Source of the DNA: Candidatus Magasanikbacteria bacterium RIFOXYB2_FULL_38_10
GTDB lineage: Bacteria; Patescibacteriota; Patescibacteriia; Magasanikbacterales; UBA10003
NCBI GenBank assembly: GCA_001783145.1
Contig: MFQT01000010.1
Location: 1 to 47,449, forward strand
Direction: 5' to 3'
DNA length: 47,449 nt
Under the pieces are notes generated by a model. The model did not search any database and was not told the origin of the DNA. It saw only the letters and a list, made by a program, of their open reading frames with translations. Within the stretch, counting starts at the first letter, position 1, and each line of letters opens with the position of its first letter. Below are positions 14,501 to 43,802 of the stretch, in pieces. Both the position numbers and the translations under genes were made by a program.

Positions 14501-15043
14501 TTAAGCTGTTACTTTTTTATCTTTATAAGCGTTAAAAACTTGTACAAGTCCGCGTAAATTTCCGGCCAAGACATTTACAAAACCGGAGATTGGGGCTTGG
14601 ATAGAACCAACCAATTTGGCCAAAAGTTCTTCGCGAGAAGGCAAGGTGGACAAAACTTTTACTTCGTTGGCGGAAATAAAAGAATTCTGCCAAAGGCCTC
14701 CTAAAAGCGCCATTTTGTCATTGGTCTTAGAAAACTTGGTAATTATTTTTACCGCATCTAATTTATCACCAAAGTCAAAATTTAAACCAATAATGTGGCC
14801 CGGTAAAGTTTTAGCGTCATAATTGATACCGGCTTCTTTAAAAGCCAAATTCATTAAGGTTTTTTTAATAACAGCGCATTCAGAATTATTTTTGGATAAT
14901 TCACGTCTTAAATTGGTAATGTCCTTAACTTTTAAACCTTTGAAGTCAGTCAAAATAACCATCTTGGATTCTTTTAAAGCCTCCACTAAGGTTTTAATTA
15001 CCGACTCTTTTTGATTTCTACTCTTAGGCATAATTGTAAACAA
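14501..15043 (-). CDS. rplJ: 50S ribosomal protein L10
   Basis: 180 aa; L10 family; immediately upstream of rplL. Confidence 0.9.
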   Translation of the reverse strand: MFTIMPKSRNQKESVIKTLVEALKESKMVILTDFKGLKVKDITNLRRELSKNNSECAVIKKTLMNLAFKEAGINYDAKTLPGHIIGLNFDFGDKLDAVKIITKFSKTNDKMALLGGLWQNSFISANEVKVLSTLPSREELLAKLVGSIQAPISGFVNVLAGNLRGLVQVFNAYKDKKVTA

Positions 15044-15199
15044 AAAATCTGTGTTCTGCCACAGACTTGAAAACGGGTTTGCTTCGACCTATTTTGCCTT
15101 ATTTAAGACAAAATTAGCTCACCTCGGCAGGAAATTAAAGCCTTAAGGGCTACCTGCTATCTATGGTTAAAGATATTATAGATGAGAATATAAAAAATG
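15044..15199 (-). promoter_or_regulatory. putative L10(L12)4 autoregulatory leader of the rplJL operon
   Basis: 156-nt structured untranslated leader between pyrH and rplJ; hairpins tctgtg-ttctgc-cacaga and gcagg...cctgc; position matches the ribosomal L10 leader of other bacteria. Confidence 0.4.
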
Positions 15200-21248: not shown

Positions 21249-24092
21249 TTAAACAACAATACTTAACAGCTTACCCTTAACAAAGATAATTTTTTTAGGT
21301 TCTTTGCCTTCCAGCCATTTTTTAATTTTTTCGCTAGATAAAACAATTCTTTTGGCCTCTTCTTCTGTAATATCCACCGCCACCTCTAAAGTATCACGCA
21401 ATTTACCATTAACTTGCACAGCCAAAATAAAAGTTTCATCTTTGGCCAATTCGGCGTTAAACTCTGGCCAAGCAGATTGAAAGATTGTTTTCTTATTACC
21501 TAGTTCCTGCCAAATATCCTCTGCCAAATGCGGAGCAAAAGGAGCCAGGAGTTTAATAAATTTTCCAAAATCGTCTTGGCTAATGATGGAAGAATCATTT
21601 AAATTATTAACAAAAATCATTAATTGCGAAACGGCTGTATTAAATTTCAATTCTCCAATATCATCGGTCACTTTCTTAATTGTTTTTTCAATTTCTCTTC
21701 TCAATTCTTTATTTGTCTCTTTGGCCCATTTAATTTTTTGTGAAAAGTTCCAAATTCTCTCTAAAAACCTTCTCATGCCTACCACGCCTTTGGTGCTCCA
21801 AGCACAAGGCTGACCAAATGGCCCCATAAACATTTCATAGAGCCTCATAGCGTCAGCGCCATATTCACCCACAACATCATTAGGATTGATAACATTATTC
21901 CAACGCTTGCTCATTTTGCGGCCATCCTCGGCCAAAATCAAGCCGACGTGTTGTAATTTAGTAAATGGTTCATCATAGTTTACCGCGCCGATATCAAATA
22001 AAAATTTATGCCAAAAACGCGCGTAGATTAAATGCCTGGTGGCATGTTCTGCCCCACCAACATACAAATTTATGGGCGACCAATATTTTTCTAAATTCTT
22101 ATCAACCAATGCTTTTTTATTATTGGGATCCTCATAGCGCAGATAATACCAACAAGATCCGGCCCATTGCGGCATAGTGTTAGTCTCGCGCTTGGCTGGT
22201 CCGCCACACTTGGGACAAGTTGTATTCACCCACTTTGTGATATTAGCTAGTGGAGATTCCCCTGTTCCTGTCGGCTCATATTTTTTAACTTTGGGCAATT
22301 CTAATGGCAAATCTTTTTCTGGCACGCTCACCCAGCCATCTTTCTCACATTTCACCAGCGGAATTGGTTCTCCCCAATAACGTTGCCTGGAAAAAACCCA
22401 ATCACGGATTTTGTATTGCACCTTTTTTTCTCCCAAACCTTTTTCTTTTAGCCAGTTAATTATTTTTTCTTTAGCCTCTAAAGTTGAAAGCCCATCCAAA
22501 AAATCAGAATTGATTGCGATGCCTTCACCAGCAAAACATTTTTCTTTAGGATCAATTGCGCGACGAATAAACTCCACTTGACCTTGTATATTATATTTTT
22601 CAAATAAAGATAAGGCATCTTTTAAATTTTGCCACTCACCGGTGTAATCCTCAAGATCTTCCATCTGCGGTGGTTGTTGTTTTTCTGATTTTAAATTGAC
22701 AATATATCCTTTTTGATATTTTAAACGTTGTATTTTTAAATCCTCAATATAAAAATTAGCCTGAATTGTTCCTAAAAAATCCCCCCTCTCAAAATCCAAA
22801 AATCCTGTCTCTTCAATTATTTCTCTTCTAAGTGTTTGTTCGTCACTTTCTCCTTTATTATATCTACCAGCCGGCAATTCATACTCGCCATTCGGGCGTT
22901 TCAACACATAAATCTGTCCTTTTTTATTTAACAAAACACCTGCCACGCCATCGGCGCGGATAAAATTGGTTTCAACTTCACCAAATTGTTTAGCTACCAC
23001 CTCTTTAATCCCCAATCCATACTTCTTAGCAAACTCATAGTCCCTTTCATCATGCGCGGGCACGGCCATAATGGCGCCGGTGCCATAACCCATCAAAACG
23101 TAATCCGCCACCCAAACCGGCAGTTCCTCTCCATTCACTGGATTTATGGCCACCACGTCTTCCAACTTCACGCCAGTTTTTTCTTTAGCCAAATCAGTCC
23201 TCTCCAATTCTGATTTATTTTTTGCTAGAGCAACGTAATCTTTTACTTCCACCAAATTACAAATTTCCCCTTCTAAACTATGTAGCAAAGGATGCTCTGG
23301 CGTAAGGACAACATAAGTAGCTCCAAACAAAGTGTCGGGACGAGTGGTAAACACTTCCAAACTTTCCTCCTGCCCACCTGCTTTTAATTTAAATGTCACC
23401 AAAGCCCCTTCGCTTTTCCCAATCCAATTTCTTTGCATCTCTTTTATGGATTCTTCCCATTCAGGCAAATTATCCAAGCCCTGCAATAATTTTTCTGCGT
23501 AATCGGTAATTCTAATCACCCACTGACGCAAGGGCTTGCGTTCTACAACAGAACCACAACGTTCACAAAGTCCTCCTTCCAAATCTTCATTAGCCAAACC
23601 GGTTTTACATCCCGGGCACCAGTTAATAGGCTCGTTTGATTCATAAACCAAACCTTTTTTAAACATTTCCAAAAACGCCCACTGCGTCCATTTGTAATAA
23701 GCCGGGTCGGTAGTATTAACTTCTCTGTCCCAATCATAGGTAAAACCCAAAAGTTCCAACTGCTTTTTAAAAATTTTGATGTTTTTTTCCGTAGCCACCG
23801 ATGGATGAACTTTATTCTTGATAGCGTAATTTTCCGCTGGCAGACCAAAAGCGTCCCAACCCATTGGATGCAAAACATTAAACCCCTGCATCATTTTCAT
23901 TCTGGCAATGACATCTGTGGCAATATAGCCCTTAGGATGGCCCACATGCAAACCTGCACCGGAAGGATAGGGAAACATATCCAAAACATAATATTTTGGT
24001 TTGTCGCCACCTTCTTTGGTTTTATAAATCCCCTTTTTAATCCACTCTTTCTGCCACTTCTTTTCTATTTCTTTGTGATTATATTTTTTCAT
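21249..24092 (-). CDS. leuS: leucyl-tRNA synthetase carrying an in-frame Nudix hydrolase domain insertion
   Basis: 947 aa; HVGHP, ZN-1 knuckle CPGC...CERC, editing domain TTRPDTLFGATY, RDWVFSRQRYWG, KMSKR. About 130 extra residues (aa ~375-500) after the editing domain contain a perfect Nudix box GRYNKGESDEQTLRREIIEETGF. Confidence 0.9.
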   Translation of the reverse strand: MKKYNHKEIEKKWQKEWIKKGIYKTKEGGDKPKYYVLDMFPYPSGAGLHVGHPKGYIATDVIARMKMMQGFNVLHPMGWDAFGLPAENYAIKNKVHPSVATEKNIKIFKKQLELLGFTYDWDREVNTTDPAYYKWTQWAFLEMFKKGLVYESNEPINWCPGCKTGLANEDLEGGLCERCGSVVERKPLRQWVIRITDYAEKLLQGLDNLPEWEESIKEMQRNWIGKSEGALVTFKLKAGGQEESLEVFTTRPDTLFGATYVVLTPEHPLLHSLEGEICNLVEVKDYVALAKNKSELERTDLAKEKTGVKLEDVVAINPVNGEELPVWVADYVLMGYGTGAIMAVPAHDERDYEFAKKYGLGIKEVVAKQFGEVETNFIRADGVAGVLLNKKGQIYVLKRPNGEYELPAGRYNKGESDEQTLRREIIEETGFLDFERGDFLGTIQANFYIEDLKIQRLKYQKGYIVNLKSEKQQPPQMEDLEDYTGEWQNLKDALSLFEKYNIQGQVEFIRRAIDPKEKCFAGEGIAINSDFLDGLSTLEAKEKIINWLKEKGLGEKKVQYKIRDWVFSRQRYWGEPIPLVKCEKDGWVSVPEKDLPLELPKVKKYEPTGTGESPLANITKWVNTTCPKCGGPAKRETNTMPQWAGSCWYYLRYEDPNNKKALVDKNLEKYWSPINLYVGGAEHATRHLIYARFWHKFLFDIGAVNYDEPFTKLQHVGLILAEDGRKMSKRWNNVINPNDVVGEYGADAMRLYEMFMGPFGQPCAWSTKGVVGMRRFLERIWNFSQKIKWAKETNKELRREIEKTIKKVTDDIGELKFNTAVSQLMIFVNNLNDSSIISQDDFGKFIKLLAPFAPHLAEDIWQELGNKKTIFQSAWPEFNAELAKDETFILAVQVNGKLRDTLEVAVDITEEEAKRIVLSSEKIKKWLEGKEPKKIIFVKGKLLSIVV

Positions 24093-25217: not shown

Positions 25218-26053
25218 TTAAATAAAATTAAAACTAAAACAAGCAAAAAAGCATATTGCAAACCCTGCAAGGCATTAACCAAAGTGACACTGGCGAGTGA
25301 AATAGCATAATTGATAAGCAAAAAACTGGCCGCTCCGGCAACCTGGCCAAACAAAAATAAAAAACCTGATTGACGCGCTATTTTTTTATCTTGATGAAAA
25401 ATATCATGTCGGTTTTGAGCGCTAAGTAATAAAAATAAAGCCCCGACAAAAGTGGTTAAGCGCAGCCAAACAAAAGCATTGACAAAAGATAAATTATTAA
25501 AGAGATACTTGGTTAAAGCATAAGACAAGCCAAAAAAGAAAGCGGAAAAAAGAGCCAACCAATAAACGCGGCGAGAATTAGATTTTCCGGTTTTGCCCAA
25601 AGAAATTAAAACTGTGCCTAAAATAATCACAACAAAAGCCATAATTTGTTTAGGGTTCAACCTTTCATTCAATATAAAAAAAGAAAAAATAAAAACAAAA
25701 ATCGGAGAAAAGCCGCCAATAAAAGGCGTGATGCGTGAGGATTCAGAAATTTTTAAAGATTTAAAAAGATAAAGTAACGCCAAAGCAAAAGAGATGCCGG
25801 CAATTAAAGAAACAAATAAATTCCACCAACTTATTAAAGCCAAACCCCAAGGCGCCAGCACCAGACCAAAGAGTCCCAATAAAGAAATATAAAAAACATA
25901 TACCGCGGGGTTGGAAATTTTTTTGGAAATCAAAATTTTATCTACCACAGCGGAGAGAGCATTTAAAAAATAGCCTATTAGGGAAATTAAAAGCCACATA
26001 AATATAGATACTGAAATTATAACAAATTTGAGGAATAAAAAAAGAGGACACAA
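25115..26053 (-). CDS. DMT/EamA-family 10-TM transporter
   Basis: Two tandem 5-TM EamA-like repeats. The ORF-track start at 26053 is a TTG; a more likely ATG is at 25999. Confidence 0.6.
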   Translation of the reverse strand: MCPLFLFLKFVIISVSIFMWLLISLIGYFLNALSAVVDKILISKKISNPAVYVFYISLLGLFGLVLAPWGLALISWWNLFVSLIAGISFALALLYLFKSLKISESSRITPFIGGFSPIFVFIFSFFILNERLNPKQIMAFVVIILGTVLISLGKTGKSNSRRVYWLALFSAFFFGLSYALTKYLFNNLSFVNAFVWLRLTTFVGALFLLLSAQNRHDIFHQDKKIARQSGFLFLFGQVAGAASFLLINYAISLASVTLVNALQGLQYAFLLVLVLILFKWRPNLLEEKIKGWVLVQKILAIILIGWGLFLLV

Positions 26054-26071
26054 GCGTTAACTCGTGTCCTC
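26037..26071 (-). terminator. rho-independent terminator ending the GC-rich minus-strand operon
   Basis: gaggacac...gtgtcctc 8-bp stem followed on the minus strand by TTTTTTT. Confidence 0.6.
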
Positions 26072-26242
26072 GGAGGTTCGTGCTTTGTCTTTGGAGTTAT
26101 CCTTAGACTGGCAATCCTCTTGACCGTACGGTTTTACGGCCACTTTATTTGGCTGACCTCCGCCTATGGAGCTTTCATTTACCCTTTTGGGGATGGTTAA
26201 AGCAGAAACCGTTAGATTGTAGATGTCGTAGCCCTGCTACGA

Positions 26243-26857
26243 CTAGGCCGCGGCGGCCTTCTTCTTCGGGGCGGCCTTGGCCTTCTTCCCGGCCTTGGGC
26301 TTGGCCGGCGCCTTCTTGCCCTCGTCCGCGGGCTGGGTCGGGGCGGCGGGCTCCGGCTTGGGCGGCGGGGTGTAGCCCGTGGCCTCGTGGAACCAGCTCG
26401 GCGCCGCGTCGTTGACCAGCACGCCCTTCTCACCGGCCTGGATGCCGAGCGCCTTGACCGCGCGCACCAGCACCATCTTGACCTCGGCGGCCGTGGTCAG
26501 CACCTTGGAGTAACGCGGCTGGTCGTCCTGCCCCGGCTGCTTCCAGTCGTACTTGGCCGGGAAGCTGGACTTGAGGTCCACGCCCTTGGCCGGCTCCACC
26601 CGCACGCGCACCTGGTGCCCCAGGTCTCGCACTCCGATCCTGCCCTTGGGGGTCACCGCCAGCACCAGGTACTGCCCAGTGCTCTCGGTCCCGCCCATGA
26701 AGAACGGGTTGACCTTCTTGCCGTCCTTCTTGACCACCTTCAGTGGCCAGTCCGGGAAGCCGAGCGCCTTGAACGCCTTGCTCATGTCCATGGGGTTCTC
26801 CTTCGGCGCCTTCTTCTGGGGCGCCGCGCCGGTGGTGGGGGTCTCTCCGCACGCCAT
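26243..26857 (-). CDS. basic protein: unknown N-terminal domain plus histone-H1-like Lys/Ala/Pro-rich C-terminal tail
   Basis: 204 aa, about 68% GC; tail PPPKPEPAAPTQPADEGKKAPAKPKAGKKAKAAPKKKAAAA; GAGGAGG Shine-Dalgarno upstream; last gene of the 3-gene operon. Confidence 0.7.
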   Translation of the reverse strand: MACGETPTTGAAPQKKAPKENPMDMSKAFKALGFPDWPLKVVKKDGKKVNPFFMGGTESTGQYLVLAVTPKGRIGVRDLGHQVRVRVEPAKGVDLKSSFPAKYDWKQPGQDDQPRYSKVLTTAAEVKMVLVRAVKALGIQAGEKGVLVNDAAPSWFHEATGYTPPPKPEPAAPTQPADEGKKAPAKPKAGKKAKAAPKKKAAAA

Positions 26858-26874
26858 TGTTGCCTCCTCGGAGC

Positions 26875-27717
26875 CTACTTTAGCTCCTTATCAGTTGGGA
26901 AACTTTCCTTTACACCCGTACCCGAACCGAATGCTCCAAACGTCCCCTGGCTTCCACCAGGCAAACGTGCTTGATCCAAATAACCATAGCGCGATGATCC
27001 CGGAGGATTAAAGCTGTCGTCTGCCAAATCCTCCAAGTAGTAAACGCCACTCTTTCCCCCGGTTCCGTAGTTGGTGATGCCAAGGGAGTAATCCCTCAAA
27101 GAAGGATCGTTCGAGTAGCTCTCGGGAAGATCTTCTCCCCGCAGAGCGAAAATCGCTTCCGCTTGCTCCAGCGTTTCCACCGACTTGTGGCAATGACGCT
27201 TACGAGCGGCAGAGATTGGATCCGGAGTCTGCTCCCTGTTCTCCAACAAAGCGATGAGAGACGCTAGGAACGTCCCTGTTCGCCCGTGAGAGCCGATGCA
27301 GTACACCATCACCTTTTTACCAGCCTGCAACAACGGAATGACTTTGTCAAGCAAGAACTCTTCAAAGCCATCCGGTGGTGGACTAAAGTCAGGCCAAGGG
27401 CAACCCAAGACCTGAACTGTCTGCCCCAGTTCCAAACGGATCGCCCGAGTATCATCCAGGGGTATCAAGACATCAAACCCGTCAAAATCCCCTTCTTTCA
27501 GATACCGTGTCCCGCCCGGATAGATCTGGTAAGGGCCAACCTGCACCGCCTTCTTACCGCGGTGTGCAGGGTGGCTATCTTTTTTAATCTTCAATTTTTT
27601 GGCAGAACCACCGCTTGCTGGGACAAAGCCCTTCTCGGTCCAATCCCAGGCTTGGTCAGAACCCTTACGGCCATGTCCAGTTGGCAGGCCGCCCTTTCCT
27701 CCTTGCTCTATCATCAT
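26875..27717 (-). CDS. dual-specificity / protein-tyrosine phosphatase (CX5R P-loop) with G/S/Y-rich low-complexity C-terminal tail
   Basis: 280 aa; catalytic VYCIGSHGRTGTF with upstream WPDFSPP...; tail YSLGITNYGTGGKSGVYYLEDL...GGSQGTFGAFGSGTG. Confidence 0.8.
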   Translation of the reverse strand: MMIEQGGKGGLPTGHGRKGSDQAWDWTEKGFVPASGGSAKKLKIKKDSHPAHRGKKAVQVGPYQIYPGGTRYLKEGDFDGFDVLIPLDDTRAIRLELGQTVQVLGCPWPDFSPPPDGFEEFLLDKVIPLLQAGKKVMVYCIGSHGRTGTFLASLIALLENREQTPDPISAARKRHCHKSVETLEQAEAIFALRGEDLPESYSNDPSLRDYSLGITNYGTGGKSGVYYLEDLADDSFNPPGSSRYGYLDQARLPGGSQGTFGAFGSGTGVKESFPTDKELK

Positions 27718-27738
27718 CCCCTCCTTTCGGCAGCCTGC

Positions 27739-30087
27739 CTAAGCTGCTTTTTGTAAAATCTTAGTCTTCCAAAGGCCAAGATTTTTACCCCTTTCAAACA
27801 ACTCCTGAACTTCTTTACTAAATTCCCACCGAGCCAAACCTTCGTAGAGAGAAGCAATGCTCGTAGCGTTCTTCTTAATCTCCAACTGCTCTTGAACCTC
27901 GTATCTGTCTCCGGACAACATCTCGTGCTTGTCAAAGACATTGCCCGTGTTGTGCTGAAGATCAAAAACGTGATCGGCAAAAGCAGAGTGATTCAGCTTG
28001 CCACTGAGGAACAAAAGGCCGGCCGTAGCAATAACAGCCCACTTGGGACCGCCAAAGCTATAGCCGCGCCATTTTCCCTTTTCAAAGGCTTCGGCGTTAA
28101 GGCGGAAGAATTCAATTGCCTCGGCCAAGTCCATCTTCTTTAAGGCCTCTTTCAGAATCTTCTGGGTATTCTCTCTGTTACTGGGACTAGTGCCCCAGTA
28201 GTCGTTCGGAAGATGATACTTAGCCCTAAGGATAAAGTAGGCCGGTGAGGCAGCTGTCACTTTGCTTTCATCGGCGAATTCATCATCCTTTTTTTGCGGA
28301 GAATAATGCCGCGATTCGGCACCAACGGCCATGGCCAGGTAGGCCACAAAACGCTCGGCCGTTTCAATATGGATCCGCCGACGCAAGCTGGCAACGGCAG
28401 ATTCCAACGCTGTTCCCTTGGACGCTTGGGTCATGGCGTCCACCAGGTAAAAGTCATTGAGAGTGGTATTGACGGAGACACGGCTCTCAATGTACGCGGG
28501 ATCAAGGCGGGGCTTTGGCCAATACAAGTTGCTCTTTTCCATCCAGCGCAAGAAGATGTTGGTTTCCTTCTTGGGCACTGGATTAGCCATTTCCACCACG
28601 CCATTCATAACCATTCCGGTTGCTCCGTCTACCGAAATGATCTGTCCTTGCTTCACCAAAAGATCTTGGACGCCGACCACCGCCGGCTTGCCAAAGCTTC
28701 TGGCTACGACAGCCGCGTGCGATGTTGCTCCGCCAACCTTAGTTACCACGGCGGCAGAAATGAGCAGTCCGGGAAGATCCGCTGGTGATGTCTCGTCGCG
28801 CACCAGGATCACCTTGACTCCGTTGTTTGCCAACTCAATGGCTTCAGCAGAACTCAAGGCAACTGTGCCCACGACCGCACCAGGCGAAGCCGGCAGACCC
28901 TTGGCTAAAAGTTTGGCTTGCGCCGCCCTCGCCAAGGCCTCTGGCTTGAACACCTGACGGCTCACCGCCTCTATCTGCTCTGCAGTAACCCGCCGCAAAG
29001 CTTCATCCTTGGTCAACAGCCTCTCCCAAACCATGTGAGTGGCAATAATGACCGCAGCTTCGGGGGTGCGCTTAGCTGCCCGATACTGCAGGATGTAAAG
29101 ACGGCCGTTTTCCACGGTGAACTCCACGTCCACCGCGTCTTTCAAATGGGCCTCCAGCTTCCGCACAATCTGCTGGAGTTCGATGAAGAGGTGGGAGTTC
29201 CACTCCTTCATCTTAGCAATTGGCAACGGGGTGCGGATCCCGGCCACCACGTCCTCACCCTGGGCATTAACCAAGAACTCGCCGTAAAGCTCAGGGTTGC
29301 CAGTGGAGACATCGCGGCTAAAAACGACCCCTGTGCCAGAGTCGTTGCCACGGTTGCCAAAAACCATGGCCTGCACATTGACCGCCGTTCCCCACCATTC
29401 GGGAATCTCGTGCGCCTGGCGGTAAGCCTTGGCGCGCTCGCTATCCCAAGAGAGAAACACGGCCGTGATCGCCATCTGTAGCTGCTGCCAAACATCGTCC
29501 GGCACCGAACGCTTAGTCGCACTGGAGATAAGCTCGCGATAATTCTCGCAAAGCTCTTCCAGCGACTTAATGGTCAGCTTGCTGTCCTCAGTTATGCCTT
29601 GCTTGCGCTTGGCCTTGGTGAGGATTTTCTCAAAGCGCTGACGATCAATACCCAGGACCACGTCACCGAAAAGGCTTAGAAACCTCCGGTAAGTATCCAA
29701 GGCGAAACGCTTTGAGCCGGTATCCTTGGCCAGACCCTTAACGGTCTTAGGATTCAGACCAAGATTGAGCACCGTGTCCATCATACCGGGCATGGACTTG
29801 GCCGCGCCCGAACGCACGGACACGAGAAGCGGAGAGGAGTTGCCCCCAAACCGCTTCCCGGTCCGTGCTTCCAGCGCCTTTACACCTCTTTGAAGCTGCC
29901 CGGCGAACCGGGCAGGAAAACCACCGTGCTCGCCAAAAGCGCGGGCAACAGTCGTCGTCACCGTGAACCCGGGCGGAACCGGCACGCCAAGGCGCACCAT
30001 TTCCGCAAGACCCGCTCCCTTACCGCCCAAAACCTGGGCAGTACGGGCTACCTCTCCAAAGAGGTAGACCACTTGTCCGTTCCTCAT
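27739..30087 (-). CDS. PPDK-derived phospho-histidine phosphotransferase: PPDK_N ATP-grasp plus PEP-utilizer swivel His domain plus a novel ~260-aa C-terminal domain replacing the pyruvate/PEP TIM barrel
   Basis: 782 aa; residues 1-520 align closely to pyruvate phosphate dikinase (LGGKGAGLAEM, LLVSVRSGAAKSMPGMMDTVLNLGLN, WGTAVNVQAMVFGN, NAQGEDVVAGIRTP, GGATSHAAVVARSFG). The C-terminal third lacks every PEP-utilizers_C motif and is about 48% GC against about 61% for the PPDK part. Confidence 0.85.
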   Translation of the reverse strand: MRNGQVVYLFGEVARTAQVLGGKGAGLAEMVRLGVPVPPGFTVTTTVARAFGEHGGFPARFAGQLQRGVKALEARTGKRFGGNSSPLLVSVRSGAAKSMPGMMDTVLNLGLNPKTVKGLAKDTGSKRFALDTYRRFLSLFGDVVLGIDRQRFEKILTKAKRKQGITEDSKLTIKSLEELCENYRELISSATKRSVPDDVWQQLQMAITAVFLSWDSERAKAYRQAHEIPEWWGTAVNVQAMVFGNRGNDSGTGVVFSRDVSTGNPELYGEFLVNAQGEDVVAGIRTPLPIAKMKEWNSHLFIELQQIVRKLEAHLKDAVDVEFTVENGRLYILQYRAAKRTPEAAVIIATHMVWERLLTKDEALRRVTAEQIEAVSRQVFKPEALARAAQAKLLAKGLPASPGAVVGTVALSSAEAIELANNGVKVILVRDETSPADLPGLLISAAVVTKVGGATSHAAVVARSFGKPAVVGVQDLLVKQGQIISVDGATGMVMNGVVEMANPVPKKETNIFLRWMEKSNLYWPKPRLDPAYIESRVSVNTTLNDFYLVDAMTQASKGTALESAVASLRRRIHIETAERFVAYLAMAVGAESRHYSPQKKDDEFADESKVTAASPAYFILRAKYHLPNDYWGTSPSNRENTQKILKEALKKMDLAEAIEFFRLNAEAFEKGKWRGYSFGGPKWAVIATAGLLFLSGKLNHSAFADHVFDLQHNTGNVFDKHEMLSGDRYEVQEQLEIKKNATSIASLYEGLARWEFSKEVQELFERGKNLGLWKTKILQKAA

Positions 30088-31150
30088 GTTCTCCTCCTTG
30101 CGAGAGTGGGATTTTTGGGTTTTGTCACAGCAGGGTCACCAGAATAATTCCGGAGGTTTTCCTTATACCGGCCACACCCATTCGCCCGGATTGGATTTTT
30201 GTCCAGAATTTTTCTTTTCAATGGCTATTCCAGTTTTATCTCCACTAGTTAATTAGTTAAGGATTTACACTCACCGAAGTGAGTCCTTGCTAAAATTCCA
30301 GTGGCTTAGACTGGTATCACCATCTAGGCAAGCTTATACCCGCTATCTAGGTTCACCCAAGGCTAAAACCTTTAGCTGATCCCGGTTGCTGATCTGCGGA
30401 TTTTTCAACCCTTCAATTCAACCTTTCACAGCCTCAGGCCATAACTGCATTTGCTACAGCCGCGGTCGCCAACCGCTCTTTACAATTGCCTAGCCACCGG
30501 GGCTAGGTTACCTTTACCAGCAAGAAAACAGACAGCAAATATCTGTAAACTTGCGACCATCACCGCCCAGGCCGGCTTGATGATTTCCAACTCCTAGAGA
30601 CCCTCGAGCCTCTTTAGAATTGGAGGTGTAGTAGAAGGACCCAATCTGTTCCTTTCCTGCCACACAGGTAGATCTTGCAGAAGGCATGCCCGGTCCTTTC
30701 CGCAAGAGTCTGTTTCTCCCCCTTCCCAGTCAGTCCCTTTCAGGAAGACTCCAGGGGAGAAAGAAGAACTACCAACAGGGTCAGACCAACCTGCTGGCAA
30801 ACGTTTTAACCTAGGGGTGGCCACCCCCATGGTCGCGTGGTGCACCACAGGACGCGTTACCGCCCCACAACCAACCCCGCGTCATTGCCAACGCCGGGAA
30901 GGTTGATTTTTAAACTTAACAAAAATTTAGTTTTATTAGTGTCTTTATATCAAATTTTGATATAAAGACTTCAGGCACTGCATACTACCCCCTTGCTAAT
31001 TCCGGCAATTGAATTAGCAGGGTTGCTGATTTATTTTTGCGAGGTGGGTTCAGCTCCCACCGTCTGTTGCTTAAGGCAGTGCATTTCTTCCTCCTTTTTG
31101 TTGATGTGTTGAATTGTCAACGAGCACGCAACCACGGTTTTTCACTAACC
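30088..31150. other. about 1.1-kb non-coding, intermediate-GC, palindrome-rich tract upstream of the GC-rich operon (candidate structured RNA, operator array or decayed DNA)
   Basis: No ORF of 100 aa or more on either strand; perfect palindromes ggggtggccacccc (30814..30827), gtggtgcaccac (30837..30848) and gtctttatatcaaa-t-tttgatataaagac (30941..30969); many short hairpins. Confidence 0.4.
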
Positions 31151-31358
31151 ATAGCGGCGAATATAATTTGGATATCTAAACAAACGAAGGTAGATATCAA
31201 AACATTATTTGCCACTAATTTAAGCTTAAAATTATATTTTTTAGGAAACGTATTATTGTATCACAAATTTTAACTTTTGTCAAGTCCCCTGTGGTCGTCC
31301 CAGATAAAACATAAAACCAGCCCAAACAAGGGCTGATTTTTATGTCATCAATTAAATA

Positions 31359-36986: not shown

Positions 36987-38237
36987 ATGACGAAGCTCCT
37001 CAACATCAAGGGCGATTTCCCAATCCTGAGAGAACCCAGGGGAGACGAAGGTGTTTTCCTGACCTACCTGGACAGCGGGGCATCGTCGCAGAAGCCCGAG
37101 GCGGTGATCAAGGCGGAGGAGCAGTTCTACTGCGCCTCCAACGCCAACATCCACCGCGGTGCCTACCGGCTGGCCCGCAAGGCCACGGAGATGTACGAGG
37201 CCGCGAGGGTCACGGTGGCCGCGTTCATCGGGGCCGGCGATCCCCGGTCCCTCGTCTTCACCAGCGGCACCACCATGGGCACGAACATCGTGGCCCACGC
37301 CTGGGCCGAGGGCAACCTCCAGGACGGCGACATCGTGCTCTTCACGGAGATGGAGCACCACGCCAACATCGTCCCTTGGCACCTGCTGGGCAAGCGCCGC
37401 GACATCAAGACCGCGGCCGTCAAGGTGGACGACCGCGGGGTGCTGGACATGGAGGATCTGAAGGCCAAGCTCACGGCCGGCGAGGGACAGGTGAAGCTGG
37501 TGGCCGTGACCCACGTCTCCAACGTGACCGGGGTGAAGAACCCCGTCAAGGAGATCACGTCTCTCGCGCATCAGTTCGGCGTGGCCGTGCTGGTGGACGG
37601 GGCGCAGTCCGCCCCCCATCTGCCCGTGGACGTGGAGGACATCGGGTGCGACTTCTTCGTCTTCTCCGGCCACAAGATGCTGGGGCCGACCGGCATCGGC
37701 GGCCTCTACGTGCGTCCCAGCCGCTGGAGCGAGATCTCCCCCTTCTTTGGGGGCGGTGACATGATCACGGACGTCACCCTGGAGAACTCGGCCTTCAAAC
37801 CCATGCCCAGCCTGCTGGAAGCCGGTACGCCCAACATCGCCGGAGCGGTGACGCTCGCGGCGGCCTGCGACTACCTCAAGAGCATCGGCATGGAGCGGGT
37901 TGAGGAGCACGTCAGGACCGTGGGCACCTACGCCTGGAACAAGCTCAAGGCCATTCCGGGCGTAAAGGTCTACGGACCCGGCCCGGGAGAGCACAGAACC
38001 GGTTCACTCGTCTCCTTCACCGTGGACGGCGTCAAGAACGACGAGATCATGGCGGAGCTGGACGAGTACGGGGTGGCGGTGCGCGTAGGCCGGTTCTGCG
38101 CCTGGCCCATCTTCAAGCGCCTGGGCTTGGGCAACAACGGGGCGGTGCGAGCCTCGTTCCACATCTACAACAACTACCAAGACGTTGATCTGCTGGCCTC
38201 GGTCATCCGGGGACTCGCCGAGCAGGCGCACCAGTAA
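36987..38237 (+). CDS. sufS: SufS/CsdA-type cysteine desulfurase (class V aminotransferase, PLP-dependent)
   Basis: 416 aa, about 65% GC; PLP-lysine motif SGHKMLGPTGIG; catalytic Cys loop RVGRFCAWP; whole-length similarity to group II cysteine desulfurases. Confidence 0.9.
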   Translation: MTKLLNIKGDFPILREPRGDEGVFLTYLDSGASSQKPEAVIKAEEQFYCASNANIHRGAYRLARKATEMYEAARVTVAAFIGAGDPRSLVFTSGTTMGTNIVAHAWAEGNLQDGDIVLFTEMEHHANIVPWHLLGKRRDIKTAAVKVDDRGVLDMEDLKAKLTAGEGQVKLVAVTHVSNVTGVKNPVKEITSLAHQFGVAVLVDGAQSAPHLPVDVEDIGCDFFVFSGHKMLGPTGIGGLYVRPSRWSEISPFFGGGDMITDVTLENSAFKPMPSLLEAGTPNIAGAVTLAAACDYLKSIGMERVEEHVRTVGTYAWNKLKAIPGVKVYGPGPGEHRTGSLVSFTVDGVKNDEIMAELDEYGVAVRVGRFCAWPIFKRLGLGNNGAVRASFHIYNNYQDVDLLASVIRGLAEQAHQ

Positions 38238-41759: not shown

Positions 41760-43802
41760 TTAATTTTTGCCGAACGCACCAGCCACAGCTTTGGAAAGGT
41801 TGCTGTGCCCCAGAATTGCCGCTGCGGACGAAAAATCCGAGCCACCCCCCTCCACAAGTACTTCGGGCTGTTTGACCATCTCCGGATGGTCCTTTAGCAC
41901 CGTCAAGAGCTCACGGAAAAGAGCCAACTCAAGAGTCTTATCCTGACCAAGAACGGCCACCTGAGCACGCTGGCCTTGTGCCTCGGCTTCCAGTCGCGCC
42001 TTGGCGCCCAAACCAAGCTGTTCATCAGCCTGCTTCTTGATCTGAGCAGCGATCAGCGTCTCCTGCTGATCAGCTTCCGCCTTCTCCTTCTCAGCCTGGA
42101 TACGCGCAGTCTGTGCGATCTTCTCCTGCTGGAAGGTTTCGTTCATCTGCTGAGCAAGCTGCATGCGCTTGCCGGGGATGAGCAGTTCGGGAGGAACGTA
42201 GGGATCACCAAAACGGACATCCCTTGCGATGAGACCGGTCTTGAGAGCTTCCGGCTTGACTCCTCCTTCAACCAGAGCCTCCATCTTCTGCCGCTCATAG
42301 ATCACTTGCAAAACCTTCACGTCGCGGTTGCCCAGGATATTCCTCGACACCGAACGGTAGAGCGGAGTGATTATGCGATCTTCCACCTGCTTCAAATCCC
42401 CGACATACGCCACCACAAAGGGAGCGTTCTCGGGCGTAACCTGAACCAGGATTCGGGAATCGAGCCAGACATCCCATCCTTCAACCTTGTGATTGATGGC
42501 TCCATCGGCCGCTCCCTCCGGAATGTCAACCTTCTCTTCCGACACGGTCTGCACGATGGATCCATCCTTGTCCACCGTGAGGTTGAACGTCCTGCGGATG
42601 TAGCCACCCTCGTACCGCCAAGTTTGTACCCTGGTGTCGATCTTGGTAACCGTGTACGCAAAGGGATTCAAGTAATACTTGCCGGGCAAAAGTACACTTT
42701 CCCAGACACCAATATCGCCCTGCGGAACCAAGGGATTGGACAGATTGGTGAGCGCCATGATGCGCGCTTCTTCCTCGGAAACAGCCTTCAGTCCGTCCAG
42801 TTCGGCCTTGATCTTGTCCTTGCTCACAGGTCCTTCAAGCGACAAGAAGGTCGGAATGGCAACCGGCGCCTTATCATCAAGTTCGGCCTTGGCCGGTTGC
42901 TCGGTGGGGGCAATGGCGGTCTTGGAGAGAACCAGCTTGGACTTCCCGGCTTCCTCTTCTTCCCGCTTGTTAATCTCTTCCAACATTTGATTCAGTCTGA
43001 TTCGCCTCTGACCGATCTCAAGTCTAGACGCTTCAATATATGAAGCGACAATAGACTTGGGAACAATGGGGTCGCCAATGTACTTCTGTCCCACGTTGGA
43101 CTTGACCACGCCAACGAAACCAGCATCAATCTCGGTCTCGTCCACGGGATCTCCAACATCAAACAGGTACCTGTTGACACGGTAAGTACCGGGCTTGAGG
43201 ACAGTCAACTGAAGACCCTTGTATCCTCGCGGAAGGCCGTTTTCAGTATCAATACCCATGAAGTACTGGGCATCCAGGTACTGTTCAAACTCCTTCTCCG
43301 GCCAGCCATCAGCCATATACTGACCATCGGGCAGGGCACGACCATCCTTGGCCGTCAGAACCCTCAACTTGCCAGCTGCCACTTCCACCGTGTTCAGCTC
43401 TTCAATGTCGTTCAACACCTTGAGGAAGAAGCTGAACTGGAATCCGGGAGGCAGGATCTCGGCGCGAGGCCCCTTTTGCCAACCAGTCGCAATGACGCGG
43501 CCGGTAGGCATGTCCGTACCATAGATCCTCTTCAAATGCCCCACCTTGTCCGTATCAATGTAGGTGAAGCTGGTCATGAAAACTAAGAAGCCGGCCAAAA
43601 CAAAAGCCGTAATGGAAATGGCTCGCGTAAGCAAGGAGGACGGCTCTGCGGGAGGGAGATCCTTCTCCACCTCTCCACGCCTGCGCCTGGTCTTGTTGGC
43701 CTCTTCTACAGATGCACGATACTCTTGGTGGATGTTTCTCAGCAATCTGGGAGCGAAAGCCCCCACCAGCACTGCGAGAACTGCCAGAATGAGCAAGGAC
43801 AT
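41760..43802 (-). CDS. SPFH/flotillin-like (YqiK-type) membrane protein
   Basis: 680 aa, about 57% GC; two N-terminal TM segments; C-terminal flotillin-type Ala/Glu/Gln-rich coiled coil (TARIQAEKEKAEADQQETLIAAQIKKQADEQLGLGAKARLEAEAQGQRAQ). Confidence 0.65.
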   Translation of the reverse strand: MSLLILAVLAVLVGAFAPRLLRNIHQEYRASVEEANKTRRRRGEVEKDLPPAEPSSLLTRAISITAFVLAGFLVFMTSFTYIDTDKVGHLKRIYGTDMPTGRVIATGWQKGPRAEILPPGFQFSFFLKVLNDIEELNTVEVAAGKLRVLTAKDGRALPDGQYMADGWPEKEFEQYLDAQYFMGIDTENGLPRGYKGLQLTVLKPGTYRVNRYLFDVGDPVDETEIDAGFVGVVKSNVGQKYIGDPIVPKSIVASYIEASRLEIGQRRIRLNQMLEEINKREEEEAGKSKLVLSKTAIAPTEQPAKAELDDKAPVAIPTFLSLEGPVSKDKIKAELDGLKAVSEEEARIMALTNLSNPLVPQGDIGVWESVLLPGKYYLNPFAYTVTKIDTRVQTWRYEGGYIRRTFNLTVDKDGSIVQTVSEEKVDIPEGAADGAINHKVEGWDVWLDSRILVQVTPENAPFVVAYVGDLKQVEDRIITPLYRSVSRNILGNRDVKVLQVIYERQKMEALVEGGVKPEALKTGLIARDVRFGDPYVPPELLIPGKRMQLAQQMNETFQQEKIAQTARIQAEKEKAEADQQETLIAAQIKKQADEQLGLGAKARLEAEAQGQRAQVAVLGQDKTLELALFRELLTVLKDHPEMVKQPEVLVEGGGSDFSSAAAILGHSNLSKAVAGAFGKN

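What the first reader, a model, noticed from the sequence alone, without database searches (positions are those of the whole stretch)
26243..30087. Foreign 3-gene operon pairing a PPDK-derived phosphotransferase with a dual-specificity phosphatase and a histone-H1-like basic protein
All three genes are on the minus strand with 17-21-nt intergenic gaps, strong Shine-Dalgarno sites and a terminator at 26037..26071, so they read as one operon. Gene 1 (27739..30087) retains the ATP-grasp and phospho-His swivel domains of pyruvate phosphate dikinase, but an unknown ~260-aa domain replaces the pyruvate/PEP-binding TIM barrel. That implies a PPDK-style mechanism (ATP to His~P to substrate) aimed at a different acceptor. 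Gene 2 is a CX5R dual-specificity phosphatase, a plausible eraser for the same phosphate. Established-knowledge analogy: the eukaryotic glucan-water dikinase (PPDK-like His swivel) works with the SEX4/laforin dual-specificity glucan phosphatases. Rifampin phosphotransferase is another PPDK-derived kinase with a swapped substrate domain. I do not recognise a described prokaryotic kinase-phosphatase-basic-protein module of this composition. It is the best candidate for an undescribed system in this window.
Basis: partly seen in the sequence, partly recalled or inferred. Interest (0 to 1): 0.85.

Follow-up and report, generated by a model that had tools for sequence, protein, structure and literature searches.

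The report
Novel dikinase–phosphatase cassette shared with phages
A GC-rich three-gene operon in a candidate-phyla-radiation bacterium encodes an enzyme that keeps the ATP-to-histidine phosphate relay of pyruvate phosphate dikinase but ends in a domain of unknown fold, and it sits beside a cysteine phosphatase and a second uncharacterised protein; the same set recurs in many bacteria and phages, where it is currently mislabelled as a metabolic "PPDK".

Summary
Three minus-strand ORFs (782, 280 and 204 aa) have strong Shine-Dalgarno sites, gaps of 21 and 17 nt, and a terminator. They form a 50-70% GC island in a 37% GC Candidatus Magasanikbacteria contig.

- **Gene 2:** a CX5R/WPD Cys-phosphatase.
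- **Gene 3:** a novel alpha+beta core. Its H1-like tail is lineage-specific.

The genes co-occur in 37 of 45 species-level loci, mostly Obscuribacterales/Melainabacteria and CPR. Natural g1+g2, g2+g3 and g3+g2 fusions exist. Split versions sit in phage replication or early-gene modules.

The most likely mechanism is ATP to His457~P to an acceptor bound in X, with gene 2 resetting it and gene 3 as target or reader. The acceptor is unknown; I lean towards nucleic acid. I found no description in the literature. I rate it a new variant of the dikinase kind, of fairly high interest.

The parts
27739..30087 (-). Gene 1: PPDK-derived dikinase with a swapped acceptor domain (782 aa)
   Evidence: ORF. 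PPDK_N and PEP-utilizers, no PEP-utilizers_C. TIGR01828 629 bits, below the 843 cutoff, covering model positions 2-526 of 865. Nineteen full-length homologues with the same architecture.
29068..30075 (-). Gene 1 residues ~5-340: ATP-grasp nucleotide-binding domain
   Evidence: Aligned to C. symbiosum PPDK (1kbl and others), E ~1e-127; Pfam PPDK_N. Coordinates.
28558..28950 (-). Gene 1 residues ~380-510: phospho-histidine swivel domain; catalytic His457 at 28717..28719
   Evidence: PEP-utilizers 81.6 bits. GGATSHAAVVAR aligns with GGMTSHAAVVAR of solved PPDK. His conserved in 99 of 99 fused family members.
27742..28542 (-). Gene 1 residues 516-782: domain X, a novel all-alpha putative acceptor/catalytic domain (motifs AESRH 28306..28320, GGPKWA 28036..28053, DHVFDLQHN 27949..27975)
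26875..27717 (-). Gene 2: Cys-based dual-specificity/PTP-type phosphatase (280 aa); CX5R at 27280..27300, WPD-like loop at 27388..27396; core residues ~76-200
   Evidence: Pfam Tc-R-P 26.8 and PTP-SAK 25.9 bits, just under the GA of 27. PDB hits to ShufPTP, SsoPTP, DUSP23 and RPTP-epsilon at E 2e-6 to 1e-4. CX5R present in 41 of 41 homologues. phrog_17568.
26243..26857 (-). Gene 3: novel alpha+beta core (residues ~41-170, 26348..26737; Gly/Thr loop GGTESTG at 26675..26695) plus a Lys/Ala/Pro-rich tail (26246..26347)
26044..26071 (-). Intrinsic-terminator-like hairpin downstream of gene 3
   Evidence: 12-bp stem, 6 GC pairs, T-run.
30088..30920 (-). GC-rich, non-coding, probably structured RNA or long leader directly upstream of gene 1 (membership in the system uncertain)
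   Evidence: No ORF and no Rfam hit. nhmmer E 7e-52 to the same position in L007. 76% nucleotide identity. MFE -319 kcal/mol, z -5.4 on the operon strand versus -260 on the other strand. 48 double-sided compensatory pairs versus 2-8 in slid registers.
31255..31283 (-). Sigma-70-like promoter (TTGACA-17-TACAAT, TG extension) that could drive the leader and operon
   Evidence: 11 of 12 consensus match; lies just downstream of the glutamate dehydrogenase terminator at 31340..31313.

Best explanation
This is a self-contained, horizontally mobile, phage-linked phosphorylation module. Gene 1 is a dikinase built on the PPDK chassis. Its ATP-grasp domain uses ATP (with Pi or water taking the gamma-phosphate) to phosphorylate His457 on the swivel domain. 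The swivel domain then carries the phosphate to the C-terminal domain X instead of to a pyruvate-binding TIM barrel. Domain X is a novel all-helical domain whose invariant Glu, Arg, His, Asp, His, Asn and Lys residues form the acceptor site. Gene 2, a CX5R/WPD cysteine phosphatase, removes the same phosphate and so resets or proof-reads the mark. Gene 3, a small novel domain with a Gly/Thr loop and four invariant arginines, binds the (phospho)target or is itself the target. Its variable tail (here Lys/Ala/Pro-rich, of nucleic-acid-binding type) localises the complex.

Shown here: the domain architecture, conservation of the catalytic residues, gene linkage, fusions, and presence in phages.

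Inferred: the direction of phosphate flow, the eraser role of gene 2, and the role of gene 3.

The acceptor is not pyruvate. I think a macromolecule is most likely, with these rough odds: nucleic acid (a DNA/RNA end or a modified base) ~0.35, gene 3 or another protein ~0.3, small molecule or glycan ~0.2. The biological role is probably in phage-host conflict or phage nucleic-acid metabolism rather than in central metabolism.
For: - **Donor half intact and active-looking:** alignment to solved PPDK over residues 7-501 at E 1e-127; catalytic His in 99 of 99 relatives.
- **Acceptor half replaced:** no PF02896. X is all-alpha at pLDDT 90, with no structural or sequence relative, and has an enzyme-like invariant residue set that free-standing phage X proteins keep.
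- **X pairs only with PPDK-type donors:** it is found fused to one or next to one, never with another kinase type.
- **Linkage:** g2 and/or g3 flank g1 in 37 of 45 species-level loci, and both in 22.
- **Fusions:** g1+g2 (P0232); g3+g2 and g2+g3 (L013 and L043).
- **Gene 2 is catalytically competent:** CX5R in 41 of 41 homologues; PDB PTP/DSP matches.
- **Phage versions:** the complete triad sits in an 89.7-kb phage contig among early-type genes with RtcB 3 kb away. Split modules (PPDK-like, PTP, X, second PTP, a phrog_25950 protein with a tentative g3-like domain) lie between dcd or DNA ligase and DNA Pol I in Vibrio and Stenotrophomonas phages.
- **Conflict-like evolution:** island proteins are 50-65% identical between two genomes whose flanking proteins are mostly 85-91% identical (thioredoxin 71%); GC is anomalous in several hosts; some genomes hold several copies.
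- **Polyanion hints:** the PPDK-like part has median pI 7.5 versus 5.5 for canonical PPDK; the window's g3 has a basic tail; the Vibrio phage module has a CsrA-domain ORF.
Against: - There is no biochemical evidence, and the acceptor is unidentified.
- X has no recognisable substrate-binding signature.
- g3 tails are basic in some lineages and acidic or absent in others, and the repeat motif in Obscuribacterales has no Pfam support as SAP/HeH. Nucleic-acid binding is therefore not a family-wide property.
- Eight of 45 loci have neither partner nearby, and 15 have only one, so neither g2 nor g3 is obligatory.
- The g3-like domain in the phage modules is only tentatively detected (HMM E 2e-5, hhalign probability 25%).
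- PADLOC finds no known defence family.
- The phosphatase might act on a different substrate from the kinase.
Confidence: 0.55

Rival explanations
1. Protein phospho-switch. Gene 3 protein (or a cis motif in longer gene 1 variants) is itself the phospho-acceptor: gene 1 phosphorylates it on a conserved Thr, Tyr or Ser, and gene 2 reverses this. This would be analogous to kinase / phosphatase / small-substrate partner-switching modules or to Enzyme I passing phosphate to HPr.
For: A conserved trio of kinase, phosphatase and small protein. g3 has invariant or near-invariant T57, T60, Y63 and S117 in a surface-type Gly-rich loop. g2 has a classical WPD-type loop like protein-tyrosine phosphatases. 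Ten extended gene 1 homologues share only an LDxSGSM(S/G) motif in otherwise unrelated tails, which could be a cis acceptor or pseudo-substrate. Paralogous g3 copies occur in many loci.
Against: g3 is undetected in 14 of 45 loci and is only tentatively present in the phage modules. Fusions of g2 with g3 in both orders fit a targeting or reader domain better than a substrate. The four invariant arginines with a Gly loop look more like an anion-binding site than an acceptor site.
Confidence: 0.25
2. DNA hypermodification or nucleotide-pool enzyme set. The dikinase activates a hydroxyl on a modified base or nucleotide (as the 5-hmdU DNA kinase does in thymidine hypermodification), X acts as the transferase, and the phosphatase trims intermediates.
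For: In three phage groups the split module sits inside the replication / nucleotide-metabolism block: dcd immediately upstream and DNA Pol I downstream, with DNA ligase nearby in DLP3. X looks like an enzyme rather than a binding module.
Against: No member of the X alignment hits any Pfam family, including the base-modification families that Pfam holds. No hydroxymethylase or glycosyltransferase is consistently linked. Cellular copies sit among housekeeping genes with no DNA-modification partners. The 'thymidylate synthase' label on the phage phosphatase is an annotation error.
Confidence: 0.12
3. Glucan or other carbohydrate dikinase plus glycan phosphatase, as in plant GWD with SEX4/laforin.
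For: The same logic applies: a His-swivel dikinase paired with a DSP-family phosphatase.
Against: No carbohydrate-binding module is found in any of the three proteins. X is all-helical with no CBM-like fold. The domain order differs from GWD (established knowledge). The phage context is replication or early genes. No glycan-metabolism genes are linked.
Confidence: 0.05
4. Small-molecule (antibiotic or xenobiotic) phosphotransferase like rifampin phosphotransferase or phenylphosphate synthase.
For: Those enzymes are PPDK-derived with swapped substrate domains (established knowledge). NCBIfam rph models hit the His domain.
Against: The rph hit is 66 bits against a cutoff of 999 and covers only the swivel domain. 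The domain order is the PPDK type, not the rph type. An adjacent or fused phosphatase would undo an inactivating phosphorylation. Presence in lytic phage replication modules is hard to reconcile with this role.
Confidence: 0.06
5. Ordinary PPDK/PEP synthase acting as an auxiliary metabolic gene, as published for the phage homologues.
For: The N-terminal 500 residues are ~50% identical to genuine PPDKs. NCBIfam NF004531 (a 534-aa 'PPDK' model) scores above its cutoff. Phage papers annotate the homologues this way.
Against: The PEP/pyruvate TIM barrel is absent. X is unrelated and all-alpha. The score is below the full-length TIGR01828 cutoff. Obligate linkage to a phosphatase and to g3 has no place in glycolysis.
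Confidence: 0.02

Closest known systems
Pyruvate phosphate dikinase (PPDK, EC 2.7.9.1; e.g. Clostridium symbiosum, PDB 1KBL/1DIK)
   Same: The ATP-grasp nucleotide-binding domain, linker and phospho-His swivel domain are the same, ~50% identical over residues 7-501. The catalytic motif GG(A/M)TSHAAVVAR is the same.
   Different: The C-terminal PEP/pyruvate TIM barrel (PF02896) is replaced by the unrelated all-helical domain X. This family is always linked to a phosphatase and gene 3, and its PPDK-like part is more basic.
Rifampin phosphotransferase (RPH) and phenylphosphate synthase: PPDK-derived dikinases with swapped substrate domains
   Same: Same principle: ATP-grasp plus His-swivel delivering phosphate to a non-pyruvate acceptor (established knowledge). 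The His domain is detectably homologous.
   Different: Different domain order and unrelated substrate domain. The NF041857 score is far below its cutoff (66 versus 999). Those enzymes have no phosphatase or g3 partners.
Glucan-water dikinase with SEX4/laforin glucan phosphatases (plants and animals)
   Same: A His-swivel dikinase acts as writer and a DSP-family cysteine phosphatase acts as eraser of the same phosphate mark on a polymer (established knowledge). This is the best functional analogy for a writer/eraser pair.
   Different: No carbohydrate-binding modules, an unrelated acceptor domain, a prokaryotic/phage distribution, a third conserved protein, and a replication-module context in phages.
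PTS Enzyme I passing phosphate to HPr
   Same: A homologous swivel His domain passes phosphate to a small partner protein (established knowledge; weak TIGR01417 hit).
   Different: Enzyme I is charged by PEP through a TIM barrel and has no ATP-grasp domain. g3 is unrelated to HPr.
Small archaeal/bacterial PTPs and atypical DSPs (SsoPTP 2i6i, ShufPTP 9e9l, DUSP23 4erc); Pfam PTP-SAK and Tc-R-P
   Same: The gene 2 core shares the CX5R P-loop and the acid-loop Asp with these, at E about 1e-5.
   Different: Gene 2 carries a basic ~75-aa N-terminal extension and an acidic ~80-aa C-terminal extension. It scores just below the Pfam gathering thresholds, and in some genomes it is fused to g1 or g3.
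Phage 'PPDK' auxiliary metabolic genes (Vibrio phages J26/Ares1/VHS1, Stenotrophomonas DLP3/DLP5, Rhizobium and Rhodobacter phages)
   Same: These are homologues of the gene 1 N-part (37-43% identity), next to homologues of X (phrog_20946) and of gene 2 (phrog_17568).
   Different: In these phages the module is split: the PPDK-like protein ends in a different ~170-aa tail and X is a separate ~337-aa protein. There are two phosphatases. The published interpretation as glycolytic PPDK (PMC12038007) does not consider these partners.

Membership tests
Pyruvate phosphate dikinase (TIGR01828 / EC 2.7.9.1) | N-terminal ATP-grasp nucleotide-binding domain | tested here: met
   PF01326 at 161 bits; aligned to 1kbl residues 4-512.
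Pyruvate phosphate dikinase (TIGR01828 / EC 2.7.9.1) | Swivel domain with catalytic His in the GGxTSHAA motif | tested here: met
   PF00391 at 81.6 bits; His457 aligned to the PPDK catalytic His; His present in 99 of 99 relatives.
Pyruvate phosphate dikinase (TIGR01828 / EC 2.7.9.1) | C-terminal PEP/pyruvate-binding TIM barrel (PF02896) | tested here: not met
   No PF02896 hit, whereas the canonical PPDK hits in the same search all carry it. The C-terminal model is all-alpha.
Pyruvate phosphate dikinase (TIGR01828 / EC 2.7.9.1) | Full-length score at or above the curated equivalog cutoff | tested here: not met
   628.9 bits versus a cutoff of 843.45, covering model positions 2-526 of 865. The short model NF004531 is exceeded (513 versus 456), but it covers only the donor half, so automatic pipelines are likely to misname this protein.
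Rifamycin phosphotransferase (NF041857) | Curated score, and ATP-grasp / RIF-binding / C-terminal His domain order | tested here: not met
   66 bits versus a cutoff of 999; only the His domain matches.
Cys-based PTP/DSP superfamily | CX5R(S/T) phosphate-binding loop | tested here: met
   VMVYCIGSHGRTGT in gene 2; CX5R in 41 of 41 homologues.
Cys-based PTP/DSP superfamily | General-acid Asp loop upstream of the P-loop | tested here: met
   CPWPDF aligns with the WPD loop of RPTP-epsilon and the PDF of ShufPTP. This is shown by sequence only.
Cys-based PTP/DSP superfamily | Pfam gathering score for a specific DSP family | tested here: inconclusive
   Tc-R-P 26.8 and PTP-SAK 25.9 bits versus a GA of 27. 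The phage homologues pass.
Linker histone H1/H5 | Globular winged-helix domain (PF00538) | tested here: not met
   No Pfam hit. The g3 core is a beta-rich alpha+beta fold with no winged-helix match. Only the 34-aa Lys/Ala/Pro tail resembles H1, and most homologues lack it.
Glucan-water dikinase / SEX4-laforin system | Carbohydrate-binding modules (CBM45, CBM20, CBM48) in the kinase and/or phosphatase | tested here: not met
   No CBM family in any of the three proteins at E<=0.1.
Known anti-phage defence systems (PADLOC-DB 2.0) | Match to any component model | tested here: not met
   No hit for any of the three proteins at E<=0.1.
CsrA/RsmA RNA-binding family (as a possible relative of gene 3) | Profile similarity to CsrA | tested here: not met
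   hhalign probability 0.2%.
Thymidine-hypermodification transferases (aGPT-Pplase) as a possible relative of X | Match to the Pfam aGPT-Pplase families | tested here: not met
   None of the 43 X-domain sequences hit any such Pfam family at E<=1. That those families are present in this Pfam copy rests on my recollection.

The most novel reading that the evidence does not exclude
The module is a writer-eraser-reader system for phosphorylation of nucleic acid (DNA or RNA ends, or a base or sugar hydroxyl). It would be powered by a PPDK-type His relay instead of a P-loop kinase, used by phages during replication or host takeover, and captured repeatedly by Melainabacteria and CPR bacteria. Domain X and the gene 3 core would then be two new nucleic-acid-acting folds.
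Probability: 0.3. Interest if true: 0.9.

Novelty: new variant of a known kind. Interest (0 to 1): 0.72.

Why it matters
If the mechanism holds, this defines a new branch of the PEP-utilising/dikinase superfamily, with at least 614 clusters at 50% identity. Its acceptor domain and its partner protein are both folds with no known relative. It is shared between lytic phages of Proteobacteria and two poorly understood bacterial groups, CPR/Patescibacteria and non-photosynthetic Melainabacteria.

It would also correct a published and database-propagated annotation. Phage "PPDK" is treated as a glycolytic auxiliary metabolic gene, the phage phosphatase is labelled "thymidylate synthase", and NCBIfam NF004531 will name these proteins PPDK.

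Because the donor chemistry is well understood (ATP beta-phosphate to His), the acceptor can be found directly with labelled ATP. The unknown function is therefore unusually easy to test. A His-relay kinase acting on nucleic acid or on a dedicated protein partner in phage-host conflict would be a new biochemical theme.

Tried and rejected
- **Word-indexed search with X alone:** it found nothing. The exhaustive HMMER search was needed.
- **Gene 3 as a CsrA relative:** prompted by the motif resemblance VRVRVEP / VRIGIEAP and by a CsrA-domain ORF in the phage module. Rejected by hhalign, probability 0.2%.
- **Obscuribacterales g3 tail repeats as SAP/HeH motifs:** no Pfam support, so this stays an unverified impression.
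- **LDxSGSM as a VWA domain:** too little sequence follows the motif and there is no Pfam hit. Left unexplained.
- **Alternative N-terminal partners of X:** none found; the shorter proteins are fragments of the fused form or phage-type free-standing X.
- **Insertion signatures:** no tRNA, no integrase among the neighbours, and no flanking direct repeats. The only flanking pair is an AT-rich 16-nt imperfect inverted repeat that may be chance.
- **Upstream RNA-like element:** no Rfam family. nhmmer found it only in L007. The one metagenome pattern scan returned 78 chance matches and no homologue.
- **First gene 3 structure job:** It was redone with protein-search hits.
- **Other GC-rich patches in the window:** they are unrelated genes.

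Full report
**1. The observation**

Each ATG is preceded by a strong Shine-Dalgarno sequence: AAGGAGGAG, AAGGAGG and GAGGAGG. The gaps are 21 and 17 nt. A hairpin with a 12-bp stem and a T-run lies at 26071..26044.

The block from about 26100 to 30900 is 50-74% GC in a contig that is otherwise ~37% GC. GC3 is 0.63, 0.56 and 0.97 for the three genes, against 0.36-0.37 for the host genes next to them.

The contig is from a Candidatus Magasanikbacteria (CPR/Patescibacteria) MAG. P0284, an NCBI protein from "Candidatus Magasanikbacteria bacterium RIFOXYB2_FULL_38", is 100% identical to gene 3. The island is not a chimera. An independent assembly (L007) has the same order: thioredoxin, glutamate dehydrogenase, long gap, g1-g2-g3.

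**2. Gene 1**

Pfam finds PPDK_N and the PEP-utilizers mobile domain but no PEP-utilizers_C. TIGR01828 (PPDK) matches only model positions 2-526 of 865 and falls below its cutoff, at 629 versus 843 bits. Against solved structures, residues 7-501 align with C. symbiosum PPDK residues 4-512 at E ~1e-127, and GGATSHAAVVAR lies over the catalytic GGMTSHAAVVAR. The His (His457, window 28717..28719) is present in 99 of 99 family members. The ATP-to-His donor half is therefore intact.

The remaining ~265 residues ("X") are different in every respect:

- No Pfam hit in any of 43 homologues, even at E<=1, and no PDB sequence hit by profile.
- The AlphaFold model is confident (pLDDT 90, pTM 0.90) and purely helical.
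- BFVD returns only four unnamed ~330-aa phage proteins.
- The alignment shows an enzyme-like set of invariant polar residues: E76, R78, H79, G164, G165, W168, D190, D194, H197, N198, K205 in alignment numbering. These correspond to E591, R593, H594, G679, G680, W683, D705, D709, H712, N713 and K720 in the protein.

An exhaustive HMMER search finds 614 representative clusters with this domain at E<=1e-3, and 145 at E<=1e-10. Nearly all are fused behind a PPDK-like N-part. The shorter ones are fragments or phage-type free-standing proteins, and no other kind of N-terminal module was seen.

**3. Gene 2**

The core (residues ~76-200) has the P-loop VMVYCIGSHGRTGT (CX5R) and a CPWPDF acid loop. 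It matches small PTP/DSP structures (ShufPTP, SsoPTP, DUSP23, RPTP-epsilon) at E 2e-6 to 1e-4. It scores just under the Pfam gathering threshold for the DSP families PTP-SAK and Tc-R-P. All 41 homologues keep a CX5R motif. It is a genuine cysteine phosphatase of unknown specificity.

**4. Gene 3**

The "histone-H1-like" character belongs only to the 34-residue tail of this particular protein. Homologues end in one or two copies of a K(L/V)PGxNxASRWSxxTLxAK motif, in acidic tails, or in nothing. The repeat motif has no Pfam identity. A suspected relationship to CsrA was rejected. The GAGGAGG site supports the 204-aa start over the 151-aa form in the NCBI record.

**5. Linkage**

A scan of one genome per species found 46 loci:

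- 27 labelled Obscuribacter/Obscuribacterales, Melainabacteria or unclassified "Cyanobacteria bacterium" MAGs
- 2 in one Planktothrix-labelled MAG
- 4 Saccharibacteria
- 5 other Patescibacteria
- 8 others

In the 45 loci with an intact X ORF, both partners lie beside gene 1 in 22, gene 3 only in 9, gene 2 only in 6, and neither in 8, one of which is at a contig end. Unbiased clustering of all neighbouring ORFs finds no other consistently linked family.

Natural fusions tie the three together. P0232 is g1+g2. L013 encodes g3+g2 and L043 encodes g2+g3. Another homologue is fused to an AAA ATPase. Some genomes carry several copies or tandem pairs.

**6. Phages**

PHROGs first pointed to phages.

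- In Vibrio phages of the Ares1/VHS1/J26 group the order is: PPDK-like (691 aa), a 160-aa ORF (CsrA domain in VH2_2019), PTP, free-standing X (337 aa, phrog_20946), in some a second g2-like PTP, a ~290-aa phrog_25950 protein, then DNA polymerase I. dCTP deaminase lies just upstream in VH2_2019.
- Stenotrophomonas phages DLP3/DLP5 have the same set before DNA Pol I. The protein annotated "thymidylate synthase" there is a DSP phosphatase.
- Rhizobium and Rhodobacter phages also carry the PPDK-like and PTP genes.
- Free-standing phage X keeps Y68, E76, R78, H79, G164, G165, W168, D190, H197, N198, G200 and K205.
- The C-terminal half of phrog_25950 is a tentative g3-like domain (HMM E 2e-5; hhalign E 8e-4, probability 25%, with the invariant G, T, Y, G, R, R positions aligned).
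- Two IMG/VR contigs carry the fused triad. One 89.7-kb contig has it among dozens of small unidirectional ORFs, with RtcB 3 kb downstream.
- The literature that mentions the phage gene treats it as a glycolytic auxiliary metabolic gene and does not consider the neighbours (PMC12038007, PMC7326821). Six searches found no other description.

**7. Evolutionary behaviour**

Between the window and its syntenic relative L007, most flanking proteins are 85-91% identical (glutamate dehydrogenase 85%, IF-2 91%; thioredoxin is lower at 71%). Against this, g1, g2 and g3 are 59%, 65% and 50% identical. The cassette is GC-enriched relative to its flanks in several unrelated hosts.

There is no tRNA, no integrase and no clear target-site duplication. 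Fast divergence, patchy distribution, compositional anomaly, multiple copies per genome and presence in phages are the usual marks of genes involved in genetic conflict or carried by mobile elements. No known defence family matches, however.

**8. Mechanism**

Steps I regard as shown by sequence and structure:

- an intact ATP-grasp plus His-swivel donor
- replacement of the pyruvate site by a conserved pocket-forming domain that occurs only with this donor
- a catalytically competent cysteine phosphatase
- physical and genetic coupling of all three

Steps that are inferred:

- phosphate flows ATP to His457 to an acceptor in X
- gene 2 removes that phosphate
- gene 3 binds the (phospho)target or is the target

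For the acceptor, the hints toward nucleic acid are:

- the replication-module position in three phage groups
- a CsrA-domain ORF and an RtcB neighbour
- the basic shift of the PPDK-like part, median pI 7.5 versus 5.5, with 43% versus 7% above pI 8
- the basic tail of this g3
- from established knowledge, the fact that some DSP-family enzymes act on RNA 5' ends

Against this, g3 tails are not uniformly basic and no classical nucleic-acid-binding domain is present. A protein switch with g3 as substrate remains a serious rival, helped by the unexplained LDxSGSM motif in extended gene 1 variants. Glucan, antibiotic and ordinary-PPDK readings are poorly supported, or refuted.

**9. Comparison and novelty**

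The protein works like a PPDK-family dikinase and is a member of the PEP-utilising/dikinase superfamily. It is not a PPDK, because the defining TIM barrel and the curated full-length score both fail. It is not a rifampin phosphotransferase, and gene 3 is not a linker histone. The pairing of a His-swivel dikinase with a DSP phosphatase is functionally closest to GWD with SEX4/laforin, but none of the carbohydrate-specific features is present.

Two of the four domains have no detectable sequence or structural relatives, and I found no published account of the module. I therefore class it as a new variant of a known kind. If the acceptor proves to be nucleic acid, it could turn out to be categorically new biology.

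**10. Side observations**

- Directly upstream of gene 1 is an ~830-nt GC-rich non-coding stretch, conserved with L007 at 76% nucleotide identity (nhmmer E 7e-52). It folds far better on the operon strand and has many compensatory changes, but no Rfam family and no further homologue.
- The neighbouring LeuRS carries a NUDIX domain inserted next to its editing domain.
- Further side observations are listed separately.

Noticed in passing
window 30088-30920 (minus strand): An ~830-nt GC-rich non-coding element sits directly upstream of gene 1. It is conserved with the same position in L007 (nhmmer E 7e-52, 76% nucleotide identity, i.e. diverging like the host genes rather than like the cassette). 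MFE is -319 kcal/mol (z -5.4) on the operon strand versus -260 on the other strand. There are 48 double-sided compensatory pairs versus 2-8 in slid registers. It has no Rfam match and no further homologue. It is a candidate novel large structured RNA or long leader.
   Followed up: partly
window 30941-30969: A perfect 14-bp palindrome with a 1-nt spacer (GTCTTTATATCAAA T TTTGATATAAAGAC) lies exactly at the boundary between the AT-rich spacer and the GC-rich upstream element. One arm also pairs imperfectly (16 nt, 88%) with 25929-25944 on the far side of the island. It could be an operator, a boundary, or chance.
   Followed up: no
window 21249-24092 (minus strand); NUDIX part about 22605-22955: The leucyl-tRNA synthetase (947 aa) contains a NUDIX hydrolase domain (residues 380-496, 49.5 bits versus GA 21.1, with a perfect Nudix box GRYNKGESDEQTLRREIIEETGF) inserted right after a truncated editing domain.
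   Followed up: partly
homologues P0122, P0125, P0130, P0147, P0168, P0173, P0208, P0263; L015:4429-7407; L023:4396-7221: Gene 1 homologues with 150-260 extra C-terminal residues share nothing in those tails except a short motif, L-D-x-S-G-S-M-(S/G), about 100-130 residues after domain X. It resembles a MIDAS start or a phospho-acceptor site. It is unexplained.
   Followed up: partly
window 36987-38237 (+), 41760-43802 (-): There are other strongly GC-enriched genes in this 37% GC contig: a class-V aminotransferase/cysteine-desulfurase-like gene (~66% GC) and an SPFH/Band-7 protein (~55% GC). This suggests repeated acquisition of GC-rich genes by this genome.
   Followed up: partly
L139 (Stenotrophomonas phage DLP5) 6165-6953; PHROG phrog_17568: The protein annotated 'thymidylate synthase (thyX)' and the PHROG family carrying that name are DSP/PTP-type phosphatases with no thymidylate-synthase domain. 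This looks like a propagated annotation error.
   Followed up: yes
window 27739-30087; NCBIfam NF004531: The 534-aa NCBIfam equivalog model 'pyruvate, phosphate dikinase' (PRK05878) is exceeded by gene 1 (513 versus 456 bits) although the pyruvate-binding domain is missing. Automatic pipelines will therefore name this family PPDK.
   Followed up: partly
window 26243-26857: The NCBI record for gene 3 (P0284) is 151 aa, starting at an internal Met. The upstream ATG at 26857 has a GAGGAGG Shine-Dalgarno 5-6 nt away, which favours the 204-aa product.
   Followed up: partly
L060 13796-14926: An RtcB RNA ligase gene lies ~3 kb downstream of the triad in the 89.7-kb phage contig. This is a single instance, so it is only a hint of a link to RNA-end metabolism.
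   Followed up: no
P0203 (2263 aa), P0254 (1926 aa); L058; phage record LR756511.1: Giant proteins from huge-phage-like contigs contain two or three copies of domain X without any PPDK-like part; one also has a Mind-bomb-type SH3 repeat.
   Followed up: no
window 15033-15184 (minus strand): Ribosomal protein L10 leader (Rfam RF00557, 51.4 bits); an ordinary feature.
   Followed up: no
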